From positions 1 through 52,493 of the forward strand of contig JAIRZD010000055.1 of assembly GCA_031267415.1 (NCBI GenBank): 52,493 nucleotides of DNA, read 5' to 3'. Under the pieces are notes generated by a model. The model searched no databases. It was given only the letters and a program-made list of their open reading frames with translations, and had not been told where the DNA came from. Position numbers and translations under genes: made by a program. Source of the stretch: Holosporaceae bacterium (lineage in GTDB: Bacteria > Pseudomonadota > Alphaproteobacteria > UBA3830). Positions 23,932 to 25,446 of the stretch are shown one piece after another; position 1 is the stretch's first letter; every line of letters begins with the position of its first letter.

Positions 23932-25446
23932 ATGAAAAGCAAAGGAATGTGGCGCAGAAAGATCGCAATTAGACTTCTTTCCAAACAAAGATATTTCGAG
24001 GAATTTATAGGAGCATACGGAGCGCAGGACCGCAGTGTACATGTGGCACATGAGGATCCGAGCACCGAAGCGACGCAGAAATTACCGAAAGAGCGCATGT
24101 TTCGAAAGAAGTCTATTGAATTTCTTCTGTTACTTATGCTGGCTACACACCAGTTGGCTGGTGAAGATAAGGATGAGGTGATTTATTTCGATGCCGCGGC
24201 GTCGTTGCCGATCAACCAGGAGGCGCTGCGGGAATTTATGACGGTGGCGCAGTTAGACGGCAATTCTTCCGGCATAAATCCCCACGCGAAGCATCTGGAA
24301 AAAATAGAAAAGCAGGCCGCCCAGGTGGTGGCGGACAAAATAAACGGTCAGGCCCATCAAATACATTTTTGCAGCAGCGCCACCATGGCCAATAATATGG
24401 CGATTCTTGGCGTGGCACGCAAAAATCCCGGCTGCCACTTGATCACTTCGAAAATCGAGCACAAAAGTGTGTTGAACGTCTTCAGGCATCTGGAAAAAAA
24501 TGGGCATGAGGTTACCTATCTGAACGTGGATCGCCGCGGGAGTGTCGACCTGGAGCATCTGCGCCGCAGCATTCGCGGGAATACGAAGCTAATTTCCGTC
24601 CAGATGCTAAACAGCGAGACCGGCACCCTACAGGATTTGAAAACCATTGGTAAAATCTCCCGACACCACAAAATTTTGTTGCATACGGATGCGGCACAGG
24701 CCTTCGGCAAATGCGACATCGATGTGGACGACATTGGGATCGACCTGGTAACAATGGCCGGACACAAAATCGGCGCTCCCAAAGGGATTGCAGCTTTGTA
24801 CATCAAAGATTCATCCAGGCTTTCTCCCATTTTATTTGGCTCCGGTGATGATTTTTTTCCCGGCTCCAAACCGACGGAACTAATAGCGGCCTTCGCAGTC
24901 GCGGTAAAAAATTTCCAATGGAATCGCCGGAGAATAGCGGAAAATTTTGCGGCACTGGGCACGGAATTAGCAAAAATCGACAAAGTATACATTATAGGTC
25001 ACCGATTGCCGCCGGAAAAAATGATCGTAGCCGGCATTATGCTGGTTTCCGTTGATGGCGTTCTGCTGGTTGATGTTCTGGAAGGCATGCGGAACTATTC
25101 CTTCTCAGCCGGATGCTCCTGCGGCGGCCAGGAAAGATCAAATGTGCTGGAAGCCATTGATCCAGAAGACAAATTGCCCAGCTGCATCATTCGCATCAGC
25201 TTTTCGGACACCCAGGAACCACAGCAATTAATTGATTTTGCGCAGCAATTAAAGCGCGTCGTCGAGCAGCTACGGCGGGAAAAAAGTATCACCAAGGGCT
25301 GCCAACAGGATCCGGCAGCAAGCGCAGCCAGCACCACGTCGTCATACCACCACCAGCCGCTGTCGCCGGATACGGCCATCAAAATACTTGCGGAGGCTCT
25401 GAAGGAACGGAAACCCCCTGGGCAATCCGACGTTCCAAAGATATAG
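23932..25446 (+). CDS. iscS: IscS/NifS-like cysteine desulfurase (aminotransferase class V), divergent, with apparent signal peptide interrupted by the palindromic element
   Basis: IYFDAAAS, SSATMANN, IEHKSV, NSETGTLQ, HTDAAQAFGK, GHKIGAPKG (PLP Lys), SAGCSC (catalytic Cys loop), IRISF. GGAG precedes ATG 23932; the ORF track starts at 23905. Confidence 0.85.
   Translation: MKSKGMWRRKIAIRLLSKQRYFEEFIGAYGAQDRSVHVAHEDPSTEATQKLPKERMFRKKSIEFLLLLMLATHQLAGEDKDEVIYFDAAASLPINQEALREFMTVAQLDGNSSGINPHAKHLEKIEKQAAQVVADKINGQAHQIHFCSSATMANNMAILGVARKNPGCHLITSKIEHKSVLNVFRHLEKNGHEVTYLNVDRRGSVDLEHLRRSIRGNTKLISVQMLNSETGTLQDLKTIGKISRHHKILLHTDAAQAFGKCDIDVDDIGIDLVTMAGHKIGAPKGIAALYIKDSSRLSPILFGSGDDFFPGSKPTELIAAFAVAVKNFQWNRRRIAENFAALGTELAKIDKVYIIGHRLPPEKMIVAGIMLVSVDGVLLVDVLEGMRNYSFSAGCSCGGQERSNVLEAIDPEDKLPSCIIRISFSDTQEPQQLIDFAQQLKRVVEQLRREKSITKGCQQDPAASAASTTSSYHHQPLSPDTAIKILAEALKERKPPGQSDVPKI
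23970..24115 (+). mobile_element. RPE-1-like palindromic miniature element, copy 2, in-frame in the cysteine desulfurase N-terminus
   Basis: 146 bp, TAGACTTCTTTCCAAACA...TGTTTCGAAAGAAGTCTA (18-bp TIR with 1 mismatch, TA at both ends). Encodes RLLSKQRYFEEFIGAYGAQDRSVHVAHEDPSTEATQKLPKERMFRKKS. Confidence 0.96.

What the first reader, a model, noticed from the sequence alone, without database searches (positions are those of the whole stretch)
23970..24115. Young protein-coding palindromic MITE family: three copies, all in-frame inside open ORFs
Seen in sequence: a 146-bp element at 1-122 (edge-truncated), 23970-24115 and 30537-30682, differing at only 2-4 positions. It has TA at both ends, an 18-bp TIR (TAGACTTCTTTCGAAACA) and inner symmetry (TTTCG/CGAAA, AATTT/AAATT, TGTAC/GTACA). 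Removing 144 bp leaves a single TA and restores the frame. All three copies are in sense orientation and the same codon phase, in addB, a cysteine desulfurase and bamE; each complete copy adds RLLSKQRYFEEFIGAYGAQDRSVHV[V/A]HEDPSTEATQKLPKERMFRKK[S/P]. Established knowledge: Rickettsia palindromic elements (RPE-1) also insert about 48-aa peptides into proteins. From memory this peptide shares their R.L.K..Y.EEF.G...V.ED.ST..T.KLP.E..F.K pattern but has a different centre. Inference: this is a distinct, recently active RPE-like family outside Rickettsia. The TA duplication suggests mobilisation in trans by an IS630/Tc1-mariner-type transposase. Three copies in 52 kb imply many more genome-wide.
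Basis: partly seen in the sequence, partly recalled or inferred. Interest (0 to 1): 0.9.

Follow-up and report, generated by a model that had tools for sequence, protein, structure and literature searches.

The report
Transposase behind Rickettsia-type coding palindromes
This is a 144-base mirror-symmetric repeat of the Rickettsia RPE-1 family, present in about 100 near-identical copies in this bacterial genome; it duplicates three bases (A-N-T) where it lands and has the same ends as IS5/ISL2-type transposons, which likely supply the enzyme that moves it and would explain how such repeats get into protein genes without breaking them.

Summary
The repeat is real: three copies lie in the window and about 100 genome-wide, typically 2 changes from the majority sequence. 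(1) The element is 144 bp (48 codons) with a 3-bp ANT target duplication, not TA: two empty paralogues show it, and flanks match in 33 of 42 copies (21 expected). (2) Its 16-bp ends match IS5/ISL2-type insertion sequences at 15-16 of 16, pointing to that transposase rather than IS630/mariner; none is assembled in this genome. (3) Only about 11-13 of ~100 copies read through genes, 7 of them in signal-peptide-like N-termini. It is an RPE-1 subfamily, not a separate family: it is 70-75% identical over full length to Rickettsia copies and covers TIGR01045 end to end (26 bits, cut-off 30). Its 'different centre' is a compensated frameshift. The same element occurs in Holosporaceae, Legionellales, Wolbachia and Verrucomicrobiota records, with ANT repeats in 59 of 71. 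A 2008 review lists the RPE target duplication as unknown; my searches found no paper naming its transposase, but the original RPE papers were not readable. The scan holds one untested look-alike note on another genome.

The parts
23971..24114 (+). RPE-1-subfamily element, 144-bp core (48 codons, RLLSK...FRKKS), with 16-18-bp terminal inverted repeats
23968..23970 (+). left copy of the target duplication, ATT (Ile codon)
24115..24117 (+). right copy of the target duplication, ATT
24097..24099 (+). in-frame ATG inside the element (M-F-R-K-K-S), a possible restart ahead of the hydrophobic stretch; untested
   Evidence: sequence
23932..25446 (+). NifS/IscS-type cysteine desulfurase gene (start inferred from a GGAG site). 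The element splits its signal-peptide-like leader; the catalytic domain starts at aa 93 of the open frame
30538..30681 (-). second complete 144-bp copy, after codon 2 of a lipoprotein signal peptide; flanks ACT (30684-30682) and AAT (30537-30535) differ at one base
30106..30687 (-). BamE-like lipoprotein gene (start inferred); orthologues start 14-26 residues before the lipobox Cys and lack the insert
1..121 (-). first 121 bp of a third copy, cut by the contig end; left flank ATT at 124-122. The matching right half, with ATT, most likely opens contig C37
2..820 (-). N-terminal part of addB; the insert lies in a length-variable linker and the gene most likely continues in frame on contig C37
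27782..27797 (-). solitary, decayed copy of the same terminal repeat with an AAT flank, in an intergenic spacer; likely a remnant

Best explanation
It is a 144-bp RPE-1-family miniature transposon that duplicates a 3-bp ANT target and is likely moved in trans by the transposase of an IS5/ISL2-type insertion sequence that has the same 16-bp ends. Shown: the length, the ANT duplication, the shared ends, about 100 young copies and the host range. Inferred: that the ISL2-type enzyme recognises these ends, and that the burst happened while such an IS was in the cell. The geometry explains the coding behaviour (read from the sequence). Each insertion adds 147 bp, or 49 codons. If the ANT is itself a codon (Ile, Asn, Thr, Ser) and the element is in sense, the gene reads through the RPE peptide. 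One antisense phase is also open. If the T of ANT starts a codon, it forms TAG with the element's first bases, which is silent when the target overlapped the native stop. The other combinations truncate the protein. Selection then likely removes most coding insertions, and survivors lie between genes, at stop codons, or in leaders and linkers. Inserts in signal peptides would be cleaved off, or skipped by restart at the element's own ATG (both untested). Compensatory base changes keep the hairpin across hosts, while the peptide shows no sign of protein-level constraint.
For: Empty paralogues give a 147-bp insertion with ATT doubled. Left and right ANT are identical in 33 of 42 copies against a shuffled mean of 20.6, p 5e-6. 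Seven internally deleted copies (22-137 bp) keep matching ANT pairs. In other genomes 59 of 71 match against 28 expected, 0 of 100,000 shuffles. A complete 907-bp IS (L184) has both ends at 15/16 to the element's, ATT/ATT flanks, and two ORFs with HTH_Tnp_4 and DDE_Tnp_4 whose best NCBIfam hit is IS5 NF033581. This architecture matches the ISL2-group ISCaa2/3 (914-916 bp, two ORFs, -1 shift, 275 aa; PMC3196728, passages). Left ends at 16/16 with ANT flanks lie just upstream of this transposase in a same-family genome (L177), in L182 and L183, and in a Rickettsia-labelled genome (L268, L271). ISL2 prefers ANT (PMC1676026, passage). Other IS5-type elements in the same genomes have unrelated ends (L039, L054, L066). 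A precedent exists: ISOt1/mISOt1 in Orientia (PMC2575882, passages). Native stop restored at 3 of 3 stop-edge copies with matching flanks. Covariation: 24 of 45 pairs changed on both sides, 0 of 500 shuffles. No third-position excess, p 0.29.
Against: No such transposase is in the G000 assembly (92% complete), and no IS-like end runs off a contig. It was also not found in 5 of 10 other RPE-1-bearing genomes. 16 of 50 full copies have non-identical flanks, including the window's bamE copy; at least one (C9:4946) looks recombinant. The empty site is a single one, seen in two paralogues, inside an ATT-ATT run. Many ISL2-type loci also have unmatched ANT flanks. The element's interior shows no evident likeness to the IS ends beyond 16-17 bp (by eye only). 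No transposition, transcript or protein data exist (one search listed no runs).
Confidence: 0.82

Rival explanations
1. One reading: a 146-bp TA-flanked MITE moved by an IS630/Tc1-mariner transposase.
For: TA is present at both edges in nearly all copies. Many bacterial MITEs are TA-flanked (PMC2229807, passages).
Against: Empty paralogues show 147 bp gained with ATT doubled. The flanks are direct, not complementary, repeats: 33 identical against 6 complementary of 42. No PF13358 hit in the genome. The ends match IS5/ISL2-type elements.
Confidence: 0.03
2. The ISL2-type ends record an ancient origin, but the recent copies spread by another route: another transposase, or recombination and gene conversion among existing copies, which would also make them look young.
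For: No transposase is assembled in G000 or in half of ten other holders. Unmatched flanks and a chimeric junction show that recombination between copies, or mis-assembly, does occur.
Against: Orthologues of the three window genes lack the insert, so the sites are new. Most copies keep exact ANT pairs. Same-genus relatives have few or distant copies (at most 81%). Remnants of the matching IS occur in 7 of 44 same-family genomes.
Confidence: 0.1
3. The element is kept for a function of its own, as a structured RNA (stability, processing or translational control) or a peptide tag, and mobility is secondary.
For: Strong covariation along the whole stem across phyla. Frame open in 30 of 33 colinear copies from other hosts. 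Survivors cluster at gene starts and stops.
Against: Sites are lineage-specific, with empty orthologues. The stem is deleted in many copies. The peptide centre is frameshifted between subfamilies and shows no third-position excess. Arm-to-arm homogenisation in DNA, or a need for the hairpin in transposition, would also give covariation. The only Rfam hits are below the gathering score.
Confidence: 0.05

Closest known systems
Rickettsia palindromic element RPE-1 (NCBIfam TIGR01045)
   Same: 144-bp core (146 with edge bases, the length given in PMC2229807), same termini, same open 48-codon frame, rod hairpin, found both between and inside genes. Full-length DNA identity of 68-75% to copies in a Rickettsia-labelled genome.
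   Different: A compensated +1/-1 indel pair changes about 9 central codons. It carries an internal in-frame ATG near the 3' end. Scores are 20-28 bits, under the 30-bit cut-off. The burst is young (median 2 changes per copy), and about 11-13% of copies read through genes, against nearly half reported for R. conorii (PMC10969869, passage). The host is not a Rickettsia.
IS5 family, ISL2 group insertion sequences (e.g. ISCaa2/ISCaa3 of Amoebophilus; locus L184)
   Same: 16-bp terminal repeat at 15-16 of 16, and an ANT target (PMC1676026).
   Different: The element encodes no transposase, is a sixth of the length, and its interior is a palindrome with no evident likeness to the IS interior.
mISOt1, the MITE partner of ISOt1 (IS5 family, close to IS1381) in Orientia tsutsugamushi
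   Same: A MITE that shares its ends with an IS5-family element in an intracellular alphaproteobacterium and was massively amplified (PMC2575882, passages).
   Different: Not reported there as protein-coding or as an RPE. I did not compare its sequence.
TA-flanked MITEs (Correia/NEMIS, ERIC, RUP)
   Same: Size, terminal repeats, hairpin, occasional in-frame fusions (PMC2229807, passages).
   Different: They duplicate TA, and their link to IS630-type enzymes is recalled; this element duplicates ANT.

Membership tests
RPE-1 | about 146-bp imperfect palindrome that folds as one long stem-loop | tested here: met
   144-bp core; -47 to -52 kcal/mol, z -5 to -7; shared consensus structure with Rickettsia-type copies
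RPE-1 | full-length DNA homology to Rickettsia copies | tested here: met
   75% over 1-146, E 6e-20, in the genome of L088; colinear alignment. R. conorii copies themselves were not fetched
RPE-1 | peptide matches TIGR01045 over the whole model | tested here: met
   1-48 of 48, E 6.5e-6
RPE-1 | score at or above the curated 30-bit cut-off | tested here: not met
   26 bits; best genome copy 28.1, 0 of 43 matches over the cut-off. A near relative, L107, scores 30.5, and the shortfall coincides with the central frameshift, so I file it as a divergent subfamily, not as an HMM-annotated member
RPE-1 | copies inserted in frame in conserved protein genes whose orthologues lack them | tested here: met
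   addB, desulfurase, bamE; tsaD, MlaA, BON and DUF4153 genes by domain hits
RPE-1 | insert is translated and the host protein works | not testable with these tools
   no RNA or protein data; one search listed no runs
MITE | terminal inverted repeats, target duplication, no transposase, many copies | tested here: met
MITE partner of IS5/ISL2 | ends shared with an autonomous ISL2-type IS, and an ANT target | tested here: met
   The ISL2 label rests on architecture and ANT (PMC3196728, PMC1676026), not on an ISfinder search
MITE partner of IS5/ISL2 | cognate transposase present in the same genome | tested here: not met
   not found in the G000 assembly, 92% complete; found in relatives only
MITE partner of IS5/ISL2 | mobilisation by that transposase | not testable with these tools
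   needs a transposition assay
IS630/Tc1-mariner MITE | TA target duplication | tested here: not met

The most novel reading that the evidence does not exclude
RPE-1, the textbook 'selfish protein-coding palindrome', is one pan-phylum MITE family driven by IS5/ISL2-type transposases and passed among intracellular bacteria of protists and arthropods (Rickettsiales, Holosporales, Legionellales, Verrucomicrobiota). Its 144+3 geometry is frame-safe: it adds whole codons, rebuilds stop codons, and in this subfamily carries its own start and basic residues (M-F-R-K-K) that can replace a signal peptide's front end. This genome would be a recent burst that shows the filter at work, and neither the driver nor the target rule would be in print.
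Probability: 0.5. Interest if true: 0.75.

Novelty: new variant of a known kind. Interest (0 to 1): 0.6.

Why it matters
RPEs are the standard example of mobile DNA that adds new segments to working bacterial proteins. The reviews I could read give no mobilising enzyme and list the target duplication as '?' (PMC2229807, Table 1). Old Rickettsia copies hide these marks; a young burst with empty paralogues shows them. Naming the ANT duplication and an ISL2-type driver makes the question testable with one plasmid assay and explains why coding copies share one reading frame. It also shows that the element is not Rickettsia-specific. In practice, it fragments this assembly (94 of 142 contig ends) and shifts predicted gene starts.

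Tried and rejected
Sequencing runs: none was listed, so there was no read-level test of empty alleles or expression. Pfam has no model for the peptide. Rfam gave two hits below the gathering score, taken as chance. Plasmid search with the IS left end: no match. Transposase in the own genome: none with PF13359, two ISL2-type queries or PF13358; other IS families were not searched. TIGR01045 across 300 evenly drawn genomes of the class: 4 hits, none over the cut-off (one of the four, G109, is unpublished, and only this count rests on it). The element is therefore patchy, not general. A 4- or 5-bp duplication was rejected (0 of 50). Protein-level selection on the peptide was not supported (33 of 44 colinear rows kept, the 11 dropped rows include the window's own subfamily). 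The tree (44 rows, three non-colinear rows left out) is weakly supported at depth, so I claim no donor or order of transfer. Solitary terminal repeats were first read as further MITE families, but no partner end was found within 700 bp, so they are treated as remnants. Ogata 2002 (PMC186582) and Mahillon & Chandler 1998 (PMC98933) are not held. Ogata 2000, Amiri 2002 and Claverie & Ogata 2003 were not seen either. No supplements were read, and they may bear on the novelty claim.

Full report
1. Observation. Each complete copy folds into one long hairpin (z -5.0 to -6.9, 0 of 200 shuffles). All three lie in sense and in one phase within open frames. In the whole assembly (866 kb, 71 contigs) BLASTN gives 51 full-length, 93 contig-edge and 22 partial hits. 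With 49 edge copies carrying a left end, this means about 100 sites, and 94 of 142 contig ends fall in the element. The 31 full-length copies without indels and above 90% identity are all distinct and differ from their majority at 1-8 positions, median 2; 27 of them keep the frame open. The burst is therefore young, but present activity is not shown.

2. Boundaries and target. Across 99 left and 94 right junctions, the base two places outside the 'TA' is almost fixed (A in 97, T in 90). Read as a 144-bp core with 3-bp flanks, 42 of 50 full copies have ANT on both sides. The two flanks are identical in 33 of these and complementary in 6, against 20.6 identical expected (p 5e-6). No copy shows a 4- or 5-bp repeat. 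A four-member paralogue family gives the direct test: two members are filled (M-I-I-[48 aa]-I-G-K-K) and two are empty (M-I-I-G-K-K), so 147 bp were gained and ATT was doubled. The TA model predicts one more Ile in the empty allele. The caveat is that this is one site, in an ATT-ATT run. Seven internally deleted copies keep matching ANT pairs. Sixteen of 50 copies have unmatched flanks, including the window's bamE copy (ACT/AAT). For bamE, an orthologue that begins M-N-V suggests a point change (inference). At C9:4946 the right flank does not continue the paralogous gene, so recombination, deletion or mis-assembly is likely there.

3. Family. The peptide matches TIGR01045 (RPE1) over all 48 positions at 26 bits, against a cut-off of 30. 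None of 43 genome matches passes the cut-off (best 28.1). Their records are titled Rickettsia, Megaera, Tisiphia, Sarmatiella, Wolbachia, Holosporaceae, Finniella, Legionella, Rickettsiella, Coxiellaceae, Chthoniobacterales and others. Some share only the ends. The modal core is 144 bp (43 of 80), and ANT flanks match in 59 of 71 (28 expected). Of the 40 with an open frame, 32 hit TIGR01045 at E below 0.01 and 23 pass the cut-off, including Legionella and Wolbachia copies. The window element aligns at 68-75% over its full length with copies in a Rickettsia-labelled genome. Its 'different centre' is a compensated +1/-1 indel pair that shifts about 9 codons. Its nearest named relatives are in records titled Holosporaceae, so the host is likely a Holosporales bacterium. 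Among relatives, 14 of 36 same-family genomes and 0 of 24 more distant ones match. The best matches (90-91%) are in another genus and same-genus matches reach at most 81%, while bamE DNA is 51-62% identical in eight relatives. This suggests transfer, but the tree does not resolve a donor.

4. Driver. The ISL2 group of IS5 prefers ANT (PMC1676026, passage). DDE_Tnp_4 hits occur in 19 of 44 same-family genomes. One transposase type, found in 7 of 44, starts about 60 bp behind a left end matching the element's at 14-16 of 16, usually with an ANT flank, in 6 of 9 loci. Among 25 of 31 metagenome loci examined, L184 is a complete 907-bp IS with both ends at 15/16 and ATT/ATT flanks, and L182 and L183 have 16/16 left ends. 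Its two ORFs hit HTH_Tnp_4 and DDE_Tnp_4, with IS5 NF033581 as best family; single-ORF relatives pass that cut-off. This is the architecture of the ISL2-group ISCaa2/3 (PMC3196728, passages). Five of ten other RPE-1 holders carry this transposase, with ends at up to 16/16 in a Rickettsia-labelled genome and a right end equal to the local element's end in L258. Other IS5-type elements in the same genomes have unrelated ends. Against this model, the transposase is not in the G000 assembly and no IS-like end runs off a contig, so it was lost, is unbinned, or was supplied transiently. No IS630-type hit was found.

5. Coding behaviour. With a codon-pair score, 158 of 191 junction flanks had no coding frame. 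Of the other 33, 13 were in the RPE frame, 2 in the open antisense frame, 11 ended at a TAG formed at the edge, 4 stopped 10-13 codons inside, and 3 left the element out of frame. In all 3 stop-edge copies with matching flanks the native stop lies at that position, and a paralogue supports a fourth. Read-through sites with support number 11: addB, the desulfurase, bamE, two paralogues (probably one event), C15:14923, a BON lipoprotein, MlaA (antisense frame), tsaD, a DUF4153 protein (missed by the score, found by Pfam) and a TadE-like protein. Two more are uncertain. Seven of the 11 lie in signal-peptide-like leaders (judged by eye), one at the extreme N-terminus of tsaD, one near an N-terminus and two in internal linkers. 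A crude ORF mask predicts 32% read-through, 57% frame-breaking and 11% non-coding outcomes for random ANT insertion, so most coding insertions, even in-frame ones, appear to have been purged. In the window, addB is a true internal insertion: orthologues continue on contig C37, in frame and with ATT/ATT flanks, though the join is inferred. The desulfurase and bamE inserts sit in leaders that orthologues have without them. Those peptides would be cleaved off, or skipped if translation restarts at the element's ATG, which would give M-F-R-K-K plus the hydrophobic stretch. That ATG borders the terminal stem and has a weak ribosome site, so I favour read-through. Neither route is tested.

6. What is conserved. 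In 28 aligned copies, 24 of 45 predicted pairs changed on both sides (0 of 500 shuffles; slid controls 11-14). The structure was derived from this alignment and the rows are related, so this is strong but not independent evidence. Third codon positions are no more variable than first and second (0.36 against 0.35 and 0.33, p 0.29). The palindrome is maintained and the peptide looks like a by-product.

7. Literature. I read passages only, through term searches, of PMC10969869, PMC2229807, PMC3184786, PMC3767692, PMC1458961, PMC1779305, PMC2635572, PMC3733652, PMC6649704, PMC11602168, PMC11909080, PMC1676026, PMC3196728 and PMC2575882. They describe RPEs in Rickettsia (and Wolbachia), show an RPE-1-bearing enzyme to be active, and list the target duplication as '?'. 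None of these passages names a transposase. Full-text searches found 0 papers with RPE-1 + Rickettsia + IS5 + transposase and none with both 'palindromic elements' and ISL2 among 23 listed. One paper held RPE1 + Legionella, seen as a listing only; none held both 'Rickettsia palindromic' and 'termite', and one held it with 'Holosporaceae'. The primary RPE papers were not readable, so the novelty of the driver and the target rule is probable, not established. NCBI's RPE1 model would already label passing copies outside Rickettsia (inference). The scan's own index gave one look-alike note on another genome and nothing for the mechanism.

8. Verdict. The feature is real. It is a divergent, young RPE-1 subfamily rather than a new family. 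Interest 0.6: the element class is known, but an open question about it becomes directly testable.

Noticed in passing
window 23932-24180 and loci L214-L221: This cysteine desulfurase has a signal-peptide-like leader in all 8 same-genus orthologues examined (a lipobox-like Cys in several), besides a second, more distant paralogue. An exported desulfurase would be unusual.
   Followed up: partly
L249 (G000:C52:1-1200): An element is fused in frame to the extreme N-terminus of tsaD (over the TIGR03723 cut-off), a normally essential gene (recalled); its left flank is on an unidentified contig.
   Followed up: partly
G000:C10:1898-1919, C43:17142-17163, C61:2790-2820, C60:4744-4781: Remnants of 22-38 bp in which only the two ends remain joined, a decay series by deletion of the stem interior.
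   Followed up: partly
G000:C37:2481-2788 and C17:10865-11010: Nested or tandem copies: a young copy sits beside or inside the end of an older (75-83%) one, showing at least two waves.
   Followed up: no
L175:1442-1820: In a same-family genome an RPE-1 copy directly follows the truncated 5' part of the matching ISL2-type IS, with unmatched flanks (ATT/AGT), as expected from an adjacent deletion.
   Followed up: partly
L247 (G000:C25:19900-23300) and C6:359-1840: A tandem family of about 450-aa secreted-looking paralogues with a weak OGFr_N hit; two carry the element at the same site and two do not.
   Followed up: partly
L250 (G000:C24:7376-8884): A 466-codon membrane protein with a weak STT3-type oligosaccharyltransferase hit runs into the element in frame at the contig end.
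   Followed up: no
L119, L130, L141, L106, L134, L137: Elements of 134-155 bp with the same ends and mostly ANT flanks but unrelated or frame-closed interiors, in Oscillospiraceae-, Cytophagales-, Chlamydiae- and Finniella-labelled records: other MITE families of the same transposase.
   Followed up: no
G000:C14:8241-8384: The element lies between a 279-codon and a 372-codon frame in the same phase, with a TAG at its edge and a damaged right end; possibly one interrupted gene.
   Followed up: no
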